This document shows, in pieces, positions 1 to 5,801 of a DNA stretch of 13,495 nucleotides (its first letter is position 1; the number at the start of each line of letters is the position of its first letter). Position numbers and translations under genes: made by a program. The stretch is taken from the IMG/VR virus record IMGVR_UViG_3300028991_000009, positions 1-13,495 of that record; one strand, given 5' to 3'. Under the pieces are notes generated by a model. That model was not told where the DNA came from. It made no database searches and saw nothing but the letters and a program-made list of their open reading frames with translations. Origin of the DNA: a virus (taxonomy: Duplodnaviria > Heunggongvirae > Uroviricota > Caudoviricetes).

Positions 1-1988
1 CTGTCTTCTCCGCTTCCGCTGGTCAGGCGCAGACTGAAGCGCACGCCCTTCACCACCCGCGGCGTGTCCCATTTCGCCAGCGCCAGATACTGGCCGTCAG
101 CGGCGCTCACCTCCACCGTAAGGTGCTGCACTGCCGGTGGGATGACGCTGTTCAGGGTGCCTGACTGCGGCTCAAAGCTGGCCCCGTTATCCACGATGGC
201 TTCTTTTTCCGGCACATGCTGCACTGCCGTGATGGCAAAGGTGCCGTCCGTGTTTTCCCGGATGGAGACACAGCGGAACAGGCGACGACGCAGTGACGGC
301 AGGGAGAGTCCCCACACACCGTATGTCTCCACACCATCCGGCAGGGTACTGACCTGTATCCGGTCCGGCGCGGGGTGTGCAGTGATGACCACGCTCACCG
401 GCTTACCGCTGCCGTTAATCAGGTTCACCGTCGAAGTACCTGTCTCCGGCAGGCTCACCTCACGGTCCAGTGTCAGGGTGCGGCTGGCGGCATCAATGGA
501 CAGGATGCGTCCGCCGGTCATGGTCCCGGCATAGTCGTTATCACAGATTTCAATAATGTCACCGGGTGTGTGACGCAGCCCCTGTGACCCGAGCGTGAAA
601 TCCACCGTCTGCGTTTCCAGCAGTTCGGTCTTTATCACCCACAGCCCGGCACGGTGGGCCTGACCGCGACTGGTGCAGCCGAACGCATCCATCTTCAGCA
701 GGTTGCGCCCGTAGCGCAGTATGGCGTCCGGGTCTTCCACCAGTTCCGTGGAGGTCTGCCAGCCGTTCTGCGGGTCGGTGTAATTCACCTCCACCGCCGT
801 GTGACGGTCCTTCAGGGCACTGAAGCTGTAGCGGAACCCCACGCCGTTATCATCCACCACCACATCGCTGTTGGTGTACGGCCACACCACATCCGACGGG
901 CGGTCCTGAACGAACGTCAGCGTCTGGCCGTTCCATACCGGCATACAGCGCATCGCCGAGCAGAAATCACTGAGGACGTCCCACGCCTTACGCTGTTGTG
1001 ACAGGTACGCATTAAAGGTCATCCGCGGCTCTGTGCCCCCGAAACCATCCGGGACCATCTGGTCGCAGTACTGCCCGATGGCATACAGCGCCCATTTGTC
1101 CACATCCGCCGCCCCCAGGCGTTTTCCCATTCCGTAACGCGGATGAGTCAGCATGTCCCACAGGCACCAGGCCGGGTTGTTGCTGTATGCCGGTTTCAGG
1201 CTGCCGTCCCAGATGCCGCTGTAAGTGCGTTTTTCCGGGTCATAGTTTGACGGCACCTGGATGATGCGACCGCGGATATGGTAGTTCACCGTCATCTGCT
1301 GACCGCCAAACTGCTCCGCATCCACCTGCAGGCCCACAATCGCCGTGTTCGGGTAGCACTGTTTCACATCGATGATTTCGGTGTATGACGACCACAGCGT
1401 TCTGTTCTGCAGCTGGTCCGTGGTGCTGTCCGCCGTCTCCCGGACCATCCGGATGTTAAAGGGGCGGGGAGGCAGATTATCCAGAATCACCGACGCCAGA
1501 AACTGCGAGGTGGTCTTGCCGTTAATGGTGACATCCTTTTCCGTCACCCAGTTACCGTTACGCTGTAACTGAATCAGCAGCCGGACAGAAGCCGGATTAC
1601 GGTCACCCTCTGACGTGGTCTGCACCAGTGACTGCACCCCGAAGGTGACCCGCAGGCGGTCAATGTTCGCGGACGTAATGGTGCGCGTCACCGGCTTTGC
1701 CTTCGTCACTTCCACGCCCAGTGCGGTTTCAGCTCCGGAGGACTCAAAGCCTTCGGGTGGTGTCTGCTCCTGCTCCCCGGCGCGCCAGACCGCGGTCACA
1801 CCGTGTATCACGGGATTACCGTCCGTGTCCGTCAGCGGGGTTTTGTTCACCAGAATACTCTGCAGTCCCTTCACCGGACCTTCAATCGGCCCTTCACCAA
1901 TGGCGTCAATCACGCTCATCATCTGCGTGGACTTAAGATTGTCCTTTGCCTCAACCGGCGTGTGCGCCTTGCCGCCACCTTTGCCCAC
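1..1988 (-). CDS. J: Tail tip host-specificity protein J (central tail fibre), N-terminal part; the ORF runs off the window start
   Basis: Hand translation from the GTG at 1988..1986 gives VGKGGGKAHTPVEAKDNLKSTQMMSVIDAIGEGPIEGPVKGLQ, matching the N-terminus of lambda gpJ as I recall it. SD-like AAGGGGGA lies 5-6 nt upstream. The nearest in-frame upstream stop is at 2066..2064 and there is no in-frame ATG between. No competing minus-strand ORF is listed between 338 and 1988, consistent with one long frame leaving the window. Position after I fits lambda order. Confidence 0.85.
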   Translation of the reverse strand, partial: MGKGGGKAHTPVEAKDNLKSTQMMSVIDAIGEGPIEGPVKGLQSILVNKTPLTDTDGNPVIHGVTAVWRAGEQEQTPPEGFESSGAETALGVEVTKAKPVTRTITSANIDRLRVTFGVQSLVQTTSEGDRNPASVRLLIQLQRNGNWVTEKDVTINGKTTSQFLASVILDNLPPRPFNIRMVRETADSTTDQLQNRTLWSSYTEIIDVKQCYPNTAIVGLQVDAEQFGGQQMTVNYHIRGRIIQVPSNYDPEKRTYSGIWDGSLKPAYSNNPAWCLWDMLTHPRYGMGKRLGAADVDKWALYAIGQYCDQMVPDGFGGTEPRMTFNAYLSQQRKAWDVLSDFCSAMRCMPVWNGQTLTFVQDRPSDVVWPYTNSDVVVDDNGVGFRYSFSALKDRHTAVEVNYTDPQNGWQTSTELVEDPDAILRYGRNLLKMDAFGCTSRGQAHRAGLWVIKTELLETQTVDFTLGSQGLRHTPGDIIEICDNDYAGTMTGGRILSIDAASRTLTLDREVSLPETGTSTVNLINGSGKPVSVVITAHPAPDRIQVSTLPDGVETYGVWGLSLPSLRRRLFRCVSIRENTDGTFAITAVQHVPEKEAIVDNGASFEPQSGTLNSVIPPAVQHLTVEVSAADGQYLALAKWDTPRVVKGVRFSLRLTSGSGED

Positions 1989-2029
1989 GGAATCCCCCTT
2001 CACTGTCCGCTGCCGGACACTGTTGATGT

Positions 2030-2061
2030 ACAAAAACAACAGGCACCCCGGAGAGTGCCTG
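2030..2061 (-). terminator. Hairpin plus U-rich tract (intrinsic-terminator-like) about 40 nt upstream of the J start
   Basis: Plus strand caggcac(2040-2046) / 8-nt loop / gtgcctg(2055-2061). On the minus strand the stem is followed by TTGTTTTTGT (2030-2039). Confidence 0.4.
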
Positions 2062-2099
2062 CATCATGACGGAATAAAAATTCTGAATATCTTCACATT

Positions 2100-2127
2100 T
2101 TCACAAACAGCCTGTGGCGCTTATAAT
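2100..2127 (+). promoter_or_regulatory. Near-consensus sigma70-type promoter on the plus strand (antisense to the tail operon)
   Basis: -35 TTCACA (2100-2105, 5/6 match to TTGACA), 16-bp spacer, -10 TATAAT (2122-2127, 6/6). Predicted start about 2133-2136. Confidence 0.4.
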
Positions 2128-2132
2128 TTCAC

Positions 2133-2232
2133 CGCGCTAATGTTTTTTTGCCCGAGTAACAGAAACAAAAATAACTCCTTAACGTTAATCTTTGTCTGTC
2201 CCCGCAGCTCCGCAACTCTGCGGGATTTTTTT
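2133..2232 (+). ncRNA. Candidate small RNA of about 100 nt between I and J, defined by the plus-strand promoter and the plus-strand intrinsic terminator
   Basis: The promoter at 2100-2127 and terminator at 2202-2232 are correctly ordered and spaced on the same strand. The only ATG after the predicted start (2140) has no SD and belongs to a long antisense frame, so a coding function is unlikely. The I-J spacer here is 250 nt versus about 60 nt in lambda as I recall. Confidence 0.3.
2202..2232 (+). terminator. Rho-independent terminator, plus-strand orientation
   Basis: cccgcag(2202-2208) / 9-nt loop / ctgcggg(2218-2224) followed by seven T (2226-2232). On the minus strand the stem is preceded, not followed, by the A/T run, so it is oriented for plus-strand transcripts. 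Confidence 0.55.
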
Positions 2233-2238
2233 ATGCTT

Positions 2239-2919
2239 TTACCCCTGCCGCCCGATAACCACCACCTTCCCGCCAGCGCCTTCATCACGGGTGCTGACGT
2301 CCTGGGATATTCGCCGGGAGCCAACCAGCATTTCACCGTAAGGCACCGGCATCGGGTTCCCCTGGGCAATCATGTTATCCAGCGAGGAAAAGTACGTGTT
2401 CTGTCTGCCGTTATCCGTGCTTTTGTACTCCGGTACTTTAGCCTTCGGCTCAAGCATCTGAGCCACACCACCCAGAATCATGCTGGCCCCCAGTGAAAAC
2501 AGCATCGTGGTGGCAGAAAAACCACCGGCTGCCAGGGCTGAACCCCATAACGCCATTGATGCCCCGGCCGTGAAGAACGACCCCACGATGGCCGCCGCCC
2601 CCAGCACAATCTGCAGTCCGCCCTTTCCGGCTCCGGCCAGTCGCGGCACAATGTGGATGACCGTTCCCTCACCCAGTTGTTCGTGAAGACGGGCGTACAC
2701 CGCCTCCGGTGCCGTGTCCTCACCGCGAATACGTATCTGGTACCAGCCTTCGTTCATCTGACGGCGGAATCCCGGCATCTGCATCGACAGGGCGCGAATG
2801 GCTTCCGCTGCCGTGTTCACATACAGGCTGAGGCGGCGGCCAAATCGTTGTAAATCCCCGTGAAGGCAGATGCGTGCCAGTGGCGGTGACGCCAGACAGA
2901 ATGCGTTCGTCGTTGCCAT
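2239..2919 (-). CDS. I: Tail tip assembly protein I
   Basis: 226-aa ORF. N-terminus MATTNAFCLASPPLARICLHGDLQRFGRRL and the C-terminal region NTYFSSLDNM..GEMLVGSR..DEGAGG match lambda gpI as recalled. Its 5' end overlaps the K 3' end by 103 nt (2817-2919), as in lambda. Confidence 0.9.
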   Translation of the reverse strand: MATTNAFCLASPPLARICLHGDLQRFGRRLSLYVNTAAEAIRALSMQMPGFRRQMNEGWYQIRIRGEDTAPEAVYARLHEQLGEGTVIHIVPRLAGAGKGGLQIVLGAAAIVGSFFTAGASMALWGSALAAGGFSATTMLFSLGASMILGGVAQMLEPKAKVPEYKSTDNGRQNTYFSSLDNMIAQGNPMPVPYGEMLVGSRRISQDVSTRDEGAGGKVVVIGRQG

Positions 2920-3560
2920 TTTTCGGAATACCTCTCCCGTTTACTCAGTTGTTCAGGCAGATGGTGAAGCAGTTCACCGTTGCCGCAGTAAATGGCGGCA
3001 TGATTGGCCACCGATGCGCCAAAGCAGCACAGCAGGATATCGCCCGCCTGTGCAGAGGACAGGGGCACCCGGTAAAAGCCCGTTGCCTCCATATTGTCCA
3101 GGTACAGGTTCTGACCGTTGCGCCACCACTCATCCTCACGGTGAAAATCCGGCATCTCAATCCCCGCCAGATGGTATGCATCCCGGAACAGGGTGTAACA
3201 GTCCGTCACCCCGTGCTCAAAGCGCCGTCCGGTCAGGTGCGGCACACAGCGGAATTTGTGAATGTCACCCCGGCAGACCAGCCACCAGGGCAGTGCGCTT
3301 TTTATCTGCAGTCGCCGGTCTGCCTCGCTCAGCCAGGGCAGACCACCGGGATGACTGTGGACCAGTGCCACAATCTCCCCCTGCATCTCTGCCCGCAGCC
3401 AGTCTTCCGGTGCAATACGAAAATACGCCTCCGGCTCTGCAGAGATATTCACACAAGGGATATAGCGCTCCCCCTCCGGCGTTCTCACCACAAAGCCGCA
3501 CGACTCCGCAGGCGCACACCGCCGGGCATGCGCCAGAATCGCTGATTCTGTCTGTGTCAT
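2817..3560 (-). CDS. K: Tail tip assembly protein K (JAB/MPN metalloprotease-like domain plus NlpC/P60-like domain)
   Basis: 247-aa ORF starting 5 nt after the L stop. It contains an exact JAMM motif HSHPGGLPWLSEAD (H-x-H-x7-S-x2-D) and an NlpC/P60-like Cys context GVTDCYTLF. Start is uncertain because there is no clear SD; an internal start is possible. Confidence 0.85.
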   Translation of the reverse strand: MTQTESAILAHARRCAPAESCGFVVRTPEGERYIPCVNISAEPEAYFRIAPEDWLRAEMQGEIVALVHSHPGGLPWLSEADRRLQIKSALPWWLVCRGDIHKFRCVPHLTGRRFEHGVTDCYTLFRDAYHLAGIEMPDFHREDEWWRNGQNLYLDNMEATGFYRVPLSSAQAGDILLCCFGASVANHAAIYCGNGELLHHLPEQLSKRERYSEKWQRRTHSVWRHRHWHASAFTGIYNDLAAASACM

Positions 3561-3565
3561 TGGAT

Positions 3566-4264
3566 TTACTGCGAAAGTTTATTAATGGAAAGGAAACCGC
3601 CGAAATTAGCCACCATGCCGCGCAGCTCACACCCGCGCAGACACTTGCTGCATCTGTCCTTACGGATATCCGTGGTGGGGTTATCGAACTCATCCGCCAC
3701 CGCAGGACCGTTATACCCGCATTCATCGCCCCGGTAATCCCACATACAGGTGTTCGCCAGCATGATGCGACCAGGAAACAGCGCCCCGTCCGTCTCGGTC
3801 GGTGTCGCCAGCACAAACGAGGCCGTCATGGCCGTCAGCTCTGACATCTGCTCCACCACCCAGCGGTCGGTCAGCTCCTGCTCCGGGTCTGCCTCAGGAT
3901 TGCCTGCCACAAAGTTCACCGCATCCAGAAAACGCGCATACACCCGACGGCGGACCACCGTGGCCCCCACCAGACTCTGCAGGTCCTCCGCCATACCGGT
4001 GACAAGACCGAACAGATTGGACACCGTCAGCGACGGTCTGGCACTGCTGCCCTTCCCGTTCATCTCAAAACCGCTGCCGTCAATCGGGTATGCCTCATAC
4101 GTCCGCCCCTGCCAGGTGACCGGCTCCCCTTTTTCATTCAGCTCGTTGCAGAAAAAATACCGCTCACCGCCCTGCACCGTCAGGTCAATTTCCCAGAGCA
4201 CCACCCGCGGTGACTGTTCTGATTTCACCGACTCGTTCAGACTTTCTTCGTGGATCTCCTGCAT
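3566..4264 (-). CDS. L: Minor tail protein L
   Basis: 232 aa, the same length as lambda gpL, with near-colinear similarity (MQ.I..E.LNE....EQS..VVLWEIDLT..GGERYFFCNE.NEKGEPVTWQGR ... GNFGGFLSINKLSQ). Confidence 0.95.
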   Translation of the reverse strand: MQEIHEESLNESVKSEQSPRVVLWEIDLTVQGGERYFFCNELNEKGEPVTWQGRTYEAYPIDGSGFEMNGKGSSARPSLTVSNLFGLVTGMAEDLQSLVGATVVRRRVYARFLDAVNFVAGNPEADPEQELTDRWVVEQMSELTAMTASFVLATPTETDGALFPGRIMLANTCMWDYRGDECGYNGPAVADEFDNPTTDIRKDRCSKCLRGCELRGMVANFGGFLSINKLSQ

Positions 4265-4276
4265 AAACTTCCACTC

Positions 4277-4301
4277 ATAAAAAAGGGGCGCAATGCGCCC
4301 C
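4277..4301 (-). terminator. Rho-independent terminator closing the porin insertion, 13 nt upstream of the L start
   Basis: Minus strand GGGGCGC / ATT / GCGCCCC (4285-4301) followed by TTTTTTAT (4277-4284). The plus-strand orientation lacks a T tract. Confidence 0.7.
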
Positions 4302-4384
4302 GAACAAAAAAGTTCAATTAAAAATCGAAAGCAATGAAGGTAATAAAATGAAAATTAAATCGGCTAATTGCCGATTGCAGTGAC

Positions 4385-4438
4385 CGGTGAAAACTATACT
4401 TTCACCGCTACAGACCATCTGTGAGGGCAGATGGTCTG
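4385..4438 (-). other. Two adjacent stable hairpins in the porin 3' UTR
   Basis: Perfect 11-bp inverted repeat cagaccatctg(4411-4421) / 6-nt loop / cagatggtctg(4428-4438), and an 8-bp stem cggtgaaa(4385-4392) / 7-nt loop / tttcaccg(4400-4407). Neither is followed by a U tract on the minus strand. Confidence 0.5.
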
Positions 4439-4462
4439 TATTTGTTCACTCACCAGTTATCA

Positions 4463-5599
4463 TCAGAACTGATAAGTCATACCAACGGCAACGATATTAT
4501 CCGTTGCAACACCTGCATCCTGGGTAAACTGACTTTCATCAATCAGATTGATTTTATAATCAACATAGGTGGACATATTTTTATTGAAATAATATGTTGC
4601 ACCCACATCAATATATTTAACCAGATCCTGATTGCCATAGTTTTTACCACCGACAATGACATCCTGAGCACGAGACTGCAGGAACGCCAGAGATGGACGC
4701 AGACCGAAATCAAACTGATACTGTAATACCGCTTCAAAGTTCTGGGCTTTATCTGCCACCCCTTTGTCGCCAAAGGTCGTCATATTCTGAGTCTCAGAAT
4801 ATATTGTCGCCAGATAAATGTTGTTGGCATCATATTTAAGCCCGGTGCCCCACATCTCAGCGTGTTTACCTTTTGCAACACTGCCGGAATCAACAACTGT
4901 TTGAGTACCGTTTACTGTTTGCGTACCATTCAGGCCTTTCACCTGATTGTTGGTACGGTCCGCGTTAGTATATGCAGCCACGATACCAAAACCTTCATAT
5001 TCATAACTGGCAGAGAAACCATAACCATCGCCATTAGCTTCCTGAAGGTCATCACGTTCATTTTTGCCCTGATACTGAGCAGCAAAATTCAGGCCATCAA
5101 CAAGTCCAAAGAAATCAGTATTACGGTAAGTCGCCACACCAGAAGTACGGGCAGTCATGAAGTTATCAGTCTGGGTCCAGACATCACCACCAAACTCTGG
5201 TAATACGTCGGTATAAGCACCAACATCATACGCAATACCATAGTTACGACCATAATCAATGCTGCCAAAGTCACCGAACTTCAGACCAGCAAACGCCAGA
5301 CGGGTCTTATTACCCGCAGCACCGTCTGATTCAGTTTTATTACCAGAGAACTGATATTCCCACTGACCAAAACCGGTCAGTTGATCATTAATCTGAGTTT
5401 CACCTTTAAAGCCCAGACGCGCATATGTCTGATCACCATCATTTCCCTTATCGCTTGAGAAATAATGCAGTGCGGTTACTCGTCCATACAAATCAAGTTT
5501 ATTGCCATCTTTATTGTAAACTTCTGCAGCCTGTGCCCCGGCTGCAAAAATCACAGCCGCAGCCACGGCTGAAAGTGCCACTGTCATTTTTTTCATCAT
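4463..5599 (-). CDS. General diffusion porin of the OmpC/OmpF superfamily, closest to phage-type NmpC/Lc/OmpD porins
   Basis: 378 aa. Signal peptide [24 protein letters not shown] followed by [15 protein letters not shown]. Conserved porin blocks [96 protein letters not shown], and the C-terminal YQF beta-barrel signature. SD AAGGA lies 5 nt upstream of the ATG. The gene is markedly more AT-rich than the flanking tail genes. Confidence 0.95.
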
Positions 5600-5801
5600 T
5601 TGTTCCTTATTTTAATTGAACTATTCATGAATTGGGCTGTCATGAACGCCAGTTAAAATATTTTACTACAAATTCTGAATTCAACTCATTAAATGCAACA
5701 AAATGTAAATAAAAGAGCGATTTCGCACTTTTTGTTAAGACAACAAAAAATAATTTTGCACGAAACAATAAAGATTAATTTATAATACAATTCCTGGAAA
5801 T
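5600..5801 (-). promoter_or_regulatory. AT-rich upstream region of the porin gene with a putative promoter and an OmpR-box-like element
   Basis: A 202-bp AT-rich spacer between the M stop and the porin start. Minus-strand TTTACATTTTGTTGCATTT (5709..5691) resembles OmpR binding sites of ompC/ompF (TTTACATTTTGAAACAT-type, from memory). A candidate -10 TAAAAT lies at 5665..5660 with a weak -35. Confidence 0.4.

What the first reader, a model, noticed from the sequence alone, without database searches (positions are those of the whole stretch)
1989..2238. Enlarged I-J spacer carrying an antisense promoter-terminator cassette: candidate prophage sRNA
The I-J spacer is 250 nt here versus about 60 nt in lambda as I recall. 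On the plus strand, opposite to all the genes, it holds a near-consensus promoter (TTCACA-16-TATAAT) and about 70 nt downstream a strong intrinsic terminator (7-bp GC stem plus seven T), predicting a non-coding transcript of about 100 nt. A separate minus-strand hairpin with a U tract sits just upstream of J. Pathogenic E. coli prophages are known to encode Hfq-dependent regulatory and anti-sRNAs; I cannot tell from sequence whether this is one of them.
Basis: seen in the sequence. Interest (0 to 1): 0.7.

Follow-up and report, generated by a model that had tools for sequence, protein, structure and literature searches.

The report
Prophage PasB-family small RNA gene

Summary
The I-J spacer is 250 nt (1989-2238), against 60 nt in lambda. 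Its plus strand carries the best sigma-70 match in the window (TTCACA-16-TATAAT, 2100-2127) and an intrinsic terminator (2201-2232). A conserved hairpin with a U tract lies on the late strand just before J.

The cassette is homologous to the I-J spacer of prophage PP6 of EPEC E2348/69. PasB was mapped there, antisense to the tail genes. PasB is an 83-nt RNA confirmed by Northern blot, depends on Hfq for stability, and has 37 RIL-seq partners.

A covariance model built from 25 relatives, without the window, hits 2134-2233(+) at 89 bits (E 6e-16).

The window copy is a rare allele. It is 81% identical to PasB. A 6-nt insertion lengthens an A-R-N tract to seven triplets, and 4 nt are deleted beside the conserved core. 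A word-28 BLAST search, as used for the published PasB census, does not find it.

Most likely it is a moron-borne, trans-acting, Hfq-dependent sRNA expressed in the lysogen.

Unresolved:
- its targets;
- the true 5' end (2134 predicted, 2149 by homology);
- the role of a nearly invariant block upstream of the -35 (2064-2101).

Known kind, moderate-to-low interest.

The parts
1989..2238 (.). I-J intergenic spacer, 250 nt
   Evidence: J starts with GTG at 1988 and the I stop is at 2239-2241. Lambda has 60 nt here.
2030..2062 (-). Late-strand GC-rich hairpin (2062-2039) with a U tract (2038-2030) just upstream of J. It is the ancestral intercistronic element and not part of the sRNA.
   Evidence: z = -3.5. 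The stem is conserved and the loop varies across 14 variants, with one compensatory C-G to U-A change. Unrelated hairpins followed by a T run occupy the same place in lambda and in the 342-nt spacer type.
2064..2101 (+). Nearly invariant block upstream of the -35: TCATGACGGAATAAAAATTCTGAATATCTTCACATTTT. It is A/T-rich like an UP element and contains a CRP-like TCTGA-N6-TCACA at 2082-2097. Function unknown.
   Evidence: Among spacers collected through the I protein alone, it is the most conserved part, more so than the RNA body. The CRP-like match is not significant by itself.
2100..2127 (+). Promoter P1: -35 TTCACA (2100-2105), 16-nt spacer, -10 TATAAT (2122-2127). Predicted start near G2134.
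   Evidence: 11 of 12, best in the window. A2123 is invariant and T2127 invariant or nearly so across relatives. The same promoter is present in E2348/69.
2138..2143 (+). Possible alternative -10 TAATGT (P2), which would start transcription at about G2150. Speculative.
   Evidence: T2138 and A2139 are invariant and T2143 is about 90% conserved. The EPEC PasB 5' end maps to 2149. No good -35 is present (read from the sequence).
2134..2232 (+). Predicted primary transcript of the PasB-family sRNA, 99 nt
   Evidence: The CM built from 25 relatives hits 2134-2233 at 89.2 bits, E 5.8e-16.
2149..2232 (+). Equivalent of the 83-nt PasB mapped in EPEC E2348/69 (84 nt here)
   Evidence: PMC8550237 Table S6 gives the coordinates. 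Alignments give 72 of 89 columns identical. blastn with word size 11 gives E 5e-19.
2155..2175 (+). Seven consecutive A-R-N triplets (AGU AAC AGA AAC AAA AAU AAC), a candidate site for the distal face of Hfq. A 6-nt insertion relative to PasB lengthens it.
   Evidence: E2348/69 has 5 triplets and 50 other variants have 2-5. None of 5000 shuffles reaches 6.
2173..2192 (+). Conserved single-stranded core, AACUCCUU (2173-2180) and GUUAAUCUU (2184-2192). This is the candidate seed; CUCCUU is complementary to a Shine-Dalgarno sequence.
   Evidence: Conservation. Zhu et al. place the PasB seed just upstream of the terminator.
2201..2232 (+). Rho-independent terminator: a 7-bp stem, a 10-nt loop, then A and U7. 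It ends 6 nt from the I stop codon.
   Evidence: Five variants carry a different hairpin but keep the T run on this strand.

Best explanation
The spacer carries a moron, that is, an extra transcription unit with its own promoter and terminator. It sits between the stop codon of tail gene I and the hairpin that precedes J in lambda-like phages, and it points against the late operon.

Its product is a member of the PasB family of prophage sRNAs. The RNA would be 84-99 nt long. It has an unstructured A-rich 5' half with seven A-R-N triplets, a conserved single-stranded core (AACUCCUU...GUUAAUCUU) and a terminator hairpin with a U7 tail.

Inferred mechanism:
- Host RNA polymerase transcribes it in the lysogen while the tail genes are silent.
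- Hfq binds the U tail and the A-R-N tract and stabilises the RNA.
- The conserved core pairs with ribosome-binding regions or coding regions of host and prophage mRNAs in trans.
- When the prophage is induced, strong Q-antiterminated late transcription runs head-on through the cassette. This would probably shut it off and produce a fully complementary RNA.

Shown here: homology, synteny and the conserved promoter and terminator anatomy. Shown by others, for the E2348/69 allele only: expression, Hfq dependence and trans partners. Inferred: that this allele behaves the same way, which region is the seed, and what happens on induction.
For: - The spacer aligns at 89% with the I-J spacer of E2348/69 prophage PP6.
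- PasB lies in that spacer at NC_011601 1466343..1466261, between I (ends 1466255) and J (starts 1466496) and antisense to both.
- The reverse complement of the PasB Northern probe is the terminator of the cassette.
- A CM built without the window scores it at 89.2 bits, E 5.8e-16, over the full length. The next hit scores 13 bits.
- A promoter plus terminator at this spacing arises in 0 of 300 shuffles.
- The key -10 positions, the terminator stem and the T run are conserved in 50 or more distinct variants. Some variants carry a replacement hairpin that still has a plus-strand T run.
- Indels between alleles (+6, -4, -1) and the absence of any conserved ORF on either strand argue against coding.
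- Published data for PasB: Northern band of the predicted size; log2 change in the hfq deletion of -6.8 and -2.4; 37 RIL-seq partners, 30 of them CDS or 5'UTR; second RNA in at least 98.7% of chimeras. Its read count is 482-1082, against 4.8 and 15 for the flanking I and J genes.
- Lambda-type I genes always have the 60-nt spacer with only the hairpin, which supports insertion of a cassette.
Against: - There are no expression data for this allele or its host.
- It is only 81% identical to PasB over the RNA. The 4-nt deletion touches the region proposed as the seed, so its targets may differ or function may be lost.
- The EPEC 5' end maps 15 nt downstream of the start predicted from TATAAT, so the promoter assignment is not settled.
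- PasB itself has no demonstrated regulatory effect on any target. The published evidence is interaction data only.
- The terminator stem shows no true covariation, being nearly invariant.
Confidence: 0.82

Rival explanations
1. The RNA acts mainly in cis. It is perfectly complementary to the I-J intercistronic part of the late tail mRNA. It would pair with that mRNA, or its promoter would collide with late transcription, and so modulate J expression or mRNA processing, for instance through RNase III cleavage of the duplex.
For: Complementarity follows from the gene's position. The RNA body and terminator stay directly next to the I stop codon in all 77 spacers of this I lineage, even where a sodC gene has replaced the promoter region. 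That pattern would fit a position-dependent role.
Against: In EPEC the RNA is abundant while the tail genes are nearly silent. It has 37 trans partners on Hfq. It does not overlap the J ribosome-binding site, which lies more than 130 nt away. Linkage to I could simply reflect co-inheritance within one mosaic block.
Confidence: 0.12
2. The cassette is transcriptional punctuation or a decaying remnant. The hairpins would be terminators or mRNA-stabilising elements for the late operon and neighbouring morons, the promoter match would be fortuitous in A/T-rich DNA, and no functional RNA would be made from this allele.
For: The late-strand hairpin before J is ancestral and is present without any cassette in lambda. 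Some relatives, the sodC type, lack the TATAAT promoter yet keep the body and terminator.
Against: An 11/12 promoter followed by a terminator arises in 0 of 300 shuffles. The key -10 positions and a 38-nt upstream block are nearly invariant. The homologous allele is transcribed in EPEC. The plus-strand T run is kept even when the hairpin is replaced.
Confidence: 0.05
3. The spacer encodes a small protein, either on the plus strand from ATG 2140 or on the late strand after the AAGGAG at 2180-2175.
For: An SD-like AAGGAG followed by a TTG start gives a 15-codon late-strand ORF. Some phage records annotate hypothetical proteins in this spacer.
Against: The late-strand ORF varies from 7 to 41 codons, with shifting frames and start codons, among relatives. 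The plus-strand frame runs through the terminator without a stop, and the -4 and -1 indels break it.
Confidence: 0.02

Closest known systems
PasB sRNA of EPEC O127:H6 E2348/69, prophage PP6 (Pearl Mizrahi et al. 2021, PMC8550237; Zhu, Shabalina & Storz 2026, bioRxiv 10.64898/2026.05.13.724894)
   Same: It occupies the same I-J spacer in the same antisense orientation. It has the same promoter (TTCACA-16-TATAAT), the same upstream block, the same terminator stem and U7 tail, and the same core AACUCCUU. Identity is 89% over the spacer and 81% over the RNA.
   Different: - A 6-nt insertion raises the A-R-N triplets from 5 to 7.
- 4 nt are deleted next to GUUAAUCUU.
- C27 of PasB is A here, which matches the PasB-2 difference at position 27 described by Zhu et al.
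- The terminator loop differs.
- It shares no 28-nt exact word with PasB, so the published word-28 census would not list it.
- An identical spacer occurs in only 1 of 5426 complete E. coli genomes.
AgvB and AsxR anti-sRNAs of EHEC prophages (Tree et al. 2014, PMC4104026; Rfam RF02702, RF02703)
   Same: They are Hfq-binding sRNAs carried as non-coding morons in lambdoid prophages of pathogenic E. coli.
   Different: They are 51-60 nt long, lie downstream of PR' in the Q-stx-lysis region, and work by mimicking targets of GcvB and FnrS. Rfam finds no match in the window, and the location differs.
Protein-coding morons of lambdoid phages (Juhala et al. 2000 concept), including the sodC gene found at this same junction
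   Same: It is an autonomous promoter-to-terminator unit placed between two late genes that are adjacent in lambda.
   Different: The product is an RNA. In 27 of 77 related loci a Cu/Zn superoxide dismutase gene sits on the same strand in place of the sRNA promoter.
Class II Hfq-dependent sRNAs such as ChiX and MgrR (from general knowledge)
   Same: It combines an A-R-N repeat tract with a U-rich terminator tail, and the EPEC homologue depends strongly on Hfq.
   Different: Binding to the distal face of Hfq has not been tested for any PasB allele.

Membership tests
PasB sRNA family | Sequence homology to the 83-nt PasB of E2348/69 | tested here: met
   blastn with word size 11 covers 77 nt at 84.4%, E 5e-19. 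Global alignment gives 72 of 89 columns identical. A CM built from 25 relatives without the window scores 89.2 bits, E 5.8e-16.
PasB sRNA family | Located in the spacer between tail genes I and J, antisense to them, with the terminator next to the I stop | tested here: met
PasB sRNA family | [quoted passage not shown] | tested here: met
   A 7-bp stem followed by U7 at 2201-2232.
PasB sRNA family | Recovered by the published census criterion (blastn word size 28, query coverage above 75%) | tested here: not met
   Word size 28 gives no hit; the longest shared word is 23 nt. This is a limit of that search method, not evidence against homology. 36 of 50 distinct relatives also fail it.
PasB sRNA family | [quoted passage not shown] | not testable with these tools
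   Shown only for the E2348/69 allele.
Hfq-binding sRNA module (Ishikawa et al. 2012, Otaka et al. 2011, as cited in PMC4104026) | Terminator hairpin preceded by a U-rich stretch and followed by a long U tail | tested here: met
   AAUCUUUGUCUGU precedes the stem and U7 follows it.
Class II Hfq sRNA | A-R-N repeats for the distal face of Hfq | tested here: met
   Seven consecutive triplets at 2155-2175. None of 5000 shuffles reaches 6. Binding itself was not tested.
AgvB/AsxR anti-sRNAs and other curated Rfam sRNA families | Match to the Rfam covariance model | tested here: not met
   No match reaches the gathering threshold anywhere in the window. In 1900-2350 the best match has E 0.2 and comes from an unrelated family on the opposite strand.
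Phage moron | Own promoter and terminator, inserted between genes that are adjacent in a related phage | tested here: met
CRP-activated promoter | A TGTGA-N6-TCACA site centred at -41.5 or -61.5 from the start site | tested here: inconclusive
   One site with one mismatch lies at 2082-2097, against a chance expectation of 0.57 per window. Its centre is at -44.5 from start 2134 and -60.5 from start 2150. The site is invariant among relatives.

The most novel reading that the evidence does not exclude
The I-J spacer RNA may be a much wider allelic series than the published PasB catalogue. At least six body types share one nearly invariant promoter-upstream block, one core and one terminator, but differ in A-R-N tract length and in the sequence flanking the seed. 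Each prophage would then bring its own target set under one common host signal. The 38-nt block with its CRP-like site would fit cAMP-CRP control from a second start at about 2150. That agrees with PasB being higher in LB than in glucose-rich DMEM. The window allele, with the longest A-R-N tract, could be an especially strong competitor for Hfq.
Probability: 0.2. Interest if true: 0.5.

Novelty: new member of a known kind. Interest (0 to 1): 0.3.

Why it matters
It places a named, experimentally supported sRNA family on a stretch that genome annotation leaves blank; none of the records examined annotates an RNA gene there. It also shows that the published PasB census, which required a 28-nt exact word, misses most alleles of this spacer RNA: 36 of the 50 distinct variants collected here, including this one. 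About 30% of complete E. coli genomes carry a related spacer (1647 of 5426). The function of PasB is still unknown, so natural alleles that differ in the A-R-N tract and beside the seed are ready-made material for finding its targets. The invariant upstream block points to a regulator worth identifying.

Tried and rejected
- Rfam at gathering threshold over the whole window, and at E up to 10 over 1900-2350: nothing relevant. The element is therefore not AgvB, AsxR, Esr41, DicF or any other curated family.
- Full-text searches for the terminator sequence and for an sRNA between tail genes: no papers.
- The supplements of Tree et al. 2014 contain no matching sequence and no entry annotated to a tail gene, so I could not link the element to any EcOnc RNA.
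- Pattern scan of one genome per species (GTDB): one hit, a 460-bp contig in a Parendozoicomonas assembly, probably contamination. It gave no useful information on taxonomic breadth.
- Late-strand micro-ORF after AAGGAG: not conserved.
- Late-strand Hfq-bound RNA ending at the hairpin before J: no I-J intergenic entry appears in the EPEC RIL-seq tables as held.
- Weak second CM hit at 9840-9929, which suggested the sRNA might pair with the RBS of the 137-aa lipoprotein gene. The duplex energy of -22.8 kcal/mol lies within background (mean -17.6, sd 5.0), so I treat it as chance.
- CRP site: a single match is not significant by itself, so I keep it only as a hypothesis.
- The list of PasB RIL-seq targets could not be extracted. 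The table is about 400,000 characters and look-ups were limited.

Full report
**1. The observation**

All genes in the window read on the minus strand and form a lambdoid head-tail module. Searches give Lambda_tail_I for 2239-2919 and Phage_tail_T for 9919-10200.

- J begins with GTG at 1988 behind an AGGGGG Shine-Dalgarno sequence. It stays open for the 662 codons that lie in the window.
- I ends with its stop at 2239-2241.
- Lambda has 60 nt at this junction. All 80 viral contigs retrieved with the lambda I protein have 59 or 60 nt.
- The plus-strand promoter TTCACA-16-TATAAT (2100-2127) matches 11 of 12 positions and is the best promoter-like site in the 13.5-kb window.
- The terminator is a 7-bp stem, CCCGCAG 2201-2207 with CTGCGGG 2218-2224, followed by A and seven T.
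- In 300 dinucleotide-preserving shuffles of the window, a promoter of 11/12 or better appeared in 6.7%. A promoter followed by a strict terminator within 40-200 nt never appeared.
- The late-strand hairpin 2062-2039 with its U tract is also real. Its folding z-score is -3.5.

**2. What it is**

Rfam gives nothing. BLAST shows that the spacer is common. Related sequence occurs in 1647 of 5426 complete E. coli genomes, though only one (strain UTAK-6) is identical. It also occurs in 147 phage records, many of them Stx-converting. None of the records I examined annotates an RNA gene there.

The literature search led to PasB. It is one of five "pathogenicity-associated" sRNAs found by Hfq RIL-seq in EPEC E2348/69 (PMC8550237).

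- Table S6 of that paper places PasB at NC_011601 1466343..1466261 on the minus strand, 83 nt long, with Northern probe AATCCCGCAGTGATCGCGGAGCT.
- In that genome the tail assembly gene I ends at 1466255 and gpJ starts at 1466496, both on the plus strand. PasB therefore lies in the I-J spacer, antisense to the tail genes, with its terminator next to the I stop. This is the arrangement in the window.
- The two spacers align at 89% identity. They share the upstream block, the TTCACA-16-TATAAT promoter, the core and the terminator.
- The 5' end reported for PasB corresponds to window position 2149.
- Zhu et al. describe a PasB versus PasB-2 difference at position 27. That position falls on the C/A polymorphism in CUCCUU(C/A)AC, which confirms the register.

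For a formal test I aligned 25 distinct relatives without the window and built a covariance model. It hits 2134-2233(+) over its full length at 89.2 bits, E 5.8e-16. The next hit scores 13 bits.

**3. How the window copy differs**

- Over the RNA it is 81% identical to PasB, 72 of 89 aligned columns.
- A 6-nt insertion extends a run of A-R-N triplets from five to seven: AGU AAC AGA AAC AAA AAU AAC, 2155-2175. Fifty other variants have two to five, and none of 5000 shuffles reaches six.
- Four nucleotides are missing just 3' of GUUAAUCUU, and the terminator loop differs.
- The longest exact word shared with PasB is 23 nt. The word-28 blastn used for the published bacterial census returns no hit, whereas word size 11 gives E 5e-19.
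- Of 50 distinct variants of this spacer RNA collected here, 36 share no 28-nt word with PasB. The family is broader than the catalogue of 1,158 hits.

**4. Anatomy and conservation**

I collected spacers in two ways. One used a conserved 24-nt pattern and returned 119 viral contigs. The other, free of bias towards spacer content, used the I protein and returned 80 loci.

Among the 77 loci in the second set where both I and J could be located:
- 48 have spacers of 234-260 nt of the PasB type.
- 2 have 342 nt, with the same cassette but a different hairpin before J.
- 27 have 851-852 nt. In these a Cu/Zn superoxide dismutase gene (sodC) with its own terminator lies on the sRNA strand in place of the TATAAT promoter, while the RNA body and terminator remain.

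Conservation in both sets ranks as follows:
- The 38-nt block 2064-2101 upstream of the -35 is nearly invariant.
- The stem of the late-strand hairpin is conserved.
- In the -10 box, A2123 is invariant and T2127 invariant or nearly so.
- The core AACUCCUU and GUUAAUCUU is conserved.
- The terminator stem and T run are conserved.
- The 5' half of the RNA is variable.

The terminator stem shows no covariation because it hardly varies. Five variants carry a different hairpin that still ends in a plus-strand T run. That supports termination on this strand.

The late-strand hairpin is not part of the cassette. Lambda has an unrelated hairpin followed by a T run at the same place, and so does the 342-nt type. 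The cassette therefore looks like an insertion of about 190 nt between the I stop and this ancestral hairpin, that is, a non-coding moron.

**5. Coding potential**

- The indels between alleles (+6, -4, -1) are not all multiples of three.
- The plus-strand frame from ATG 2140 runs through the terminator without a stop.
- A late-strand micro-ORF behind the AAGGAG that is the complement of CUCCUU varies from 7 to 41 codons, with shifting frames.

I reject coding.

**6. How it probably works**

The experimental evidence all comes from the E2348/69 allele:
- A Northern band of the predicted size.
- A strong drop without Hfq, log2 change -6.8 and -2.4.
- 37 distinct RIL-seq partners, 30 of them CDS or 5'UTR.
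- Second position in at least 98.7% of chimeras, which is typical of sRNAs.
- More chimeric fragments under the non-activating (LB) condition than the activating (DMEM) one, 1820 against 258.
- Read counts of 482-1082, against 4.8 and 15 for the neighbouring I and J genes.

By homology I infer the following for the window RNA. It is made in the lysogen and is bound by Hfq through its U7 tail and U-rich pre-terminator stretch. Hfq may also bind its A-R-N tract, which would give it a class II-like architecture. It would pair in trans through the conserved single-stranded core. CUCCUU is complementary to a Shine-Dalgarno sequence, and Zhu et al. place the seed just upstream of the terminator. No regulatory outcome has been shown for any PasB target. 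A cis-antisense effect on the late I-J mRNA is possible but untested.

**7. Open points**

(a) The 5' end.
- P1 predicts a start at about G2134, giving 99 nt. The EPEC 5' end maps to 2149, giving 84 nt.
- Either the primary transcript is trimmed, or a second promoter is used. That promoter would have -10 TAATGT (2138-2143), with T2138 and A2139 invariant and T2143 about 90% conserved, and would start at about G2150.
- The sodC-type spacers keep homology from just upstream of this second -10 but lack TATAAT.

(b) The invariant upstream block.
- It is A/T-rich like an UP element and contains TCTGA-N6-TCACA (2082-2097). This is the only CRP-like site in the window with at most one mismatch.
- The chance expectation is 0.57 per window, so the match alone proves nothing.
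- Its centre lies at -44.5 from 2134, a poor position for CRP, and at -60.5 from 2150, close to the class I position.
- CRP control would agree with higher PasB levels in LB than in glucose-rich DMEM. Spot 42, which cAMP-CRP represses, shows the opposite pattern in the same data.
- This is a hypothesis only.

**8. Verdict**

The element is a divergent, rare allele of a known prophage sRNA family, so it is not new in kind. Its practical value lies in annotation, in showing that the published census is incomplete, and in offering natural variants for functional work on an sRNA whose targets and role are still unknown.

Noticed in passing
window 4463-5599 (-), flanks 4265-4462 and 5600-5801: A 378-aa porin gene sits between tail genes M and L (Pfam Porin_1, E 1e-143; annotated ompC in related prophages). 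A strong terminator on the same strand lies at 4301-4285, and a 14-bp plus-strand hairpin lies at 4409-4440. It is a protein-coding moron in the same tail operon.
   Followed up: partly
window 9442-9855 (-), hairpin 9400-9424: A 137-aa ORF lies between tail genes T and H. It has a lipoprotein-type signal (MKKLMPLIFSAVFFLTGC), no Pfam match, and a hairpin (AAAACCTGCCAAAGCAGGTTTTATT) after it. It is probably another moron.
   Followed up: partly
L175, L186, L190 and 24 other loci of L128-L207; I-J spacer of 851-852 nt: In 27 of 77 related prophages the I-J junction carries a Cu/Zn superoxide dismutase gene (sodC) on the sRNA strand with its own terminator. A PasB-like body and terminator follow it, but the TATAAT promoter is absent. 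Whether that RNA is still made, by read-through or from the second -10, is unknown.
   Followed up: partly
L203, L205; I-J spacer of 342 nt: These loci have the same sRNA cassette, but homology begins only at ATAAAAATTCTGAA. A different, bidirectional-looking hairpin (AAACCCCGGTATC...GATACCGGGGTTT) replaces the usual one before J. This marks the left edge of the mobile cassette.
   Followed up: no
window 2134-2175: The U7 run at 2143-2149 in the predicted 5' leader could pair with the A-rich A-R-N tract. The fold of the 98-nt E2348/69 form predicts this pairing. Trimming to the 83-84-nt form would free the tract.
   Followed up: no
L126 (NZ_FWPT01000051.1, 460 bp): The only hit to the conserved 24-nt spacer motif among one-genome-per-species representatives is a 460-bp contig in a Parendozoicomonas haliclonae assembly. 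It is most likely E. coli prophage contamination.
   Followed up: no
L001 8514-12000 (E. coli UTAK-6, NZ_CP157151): The only complete genome with a spacer identical to the window has its gpJ annotated as frameshifted. The match to the window covers only 1-4264, at 94.8% overall, so the 100%-identical spacer sits in more diverged flanks. That genome has no porin gene between M and L, and its tape-measure gene is shorter.
   Followed up: partly
window 2011-2032: A second inverted repeat (CACTGTCCG-CTGC-CGGACACTG) lies between the conserved hairpin and the J Shine-Dalgarno sequence. E2348/69 has an 8-nt deletion here, so it is not conserved.
   Followed up: no
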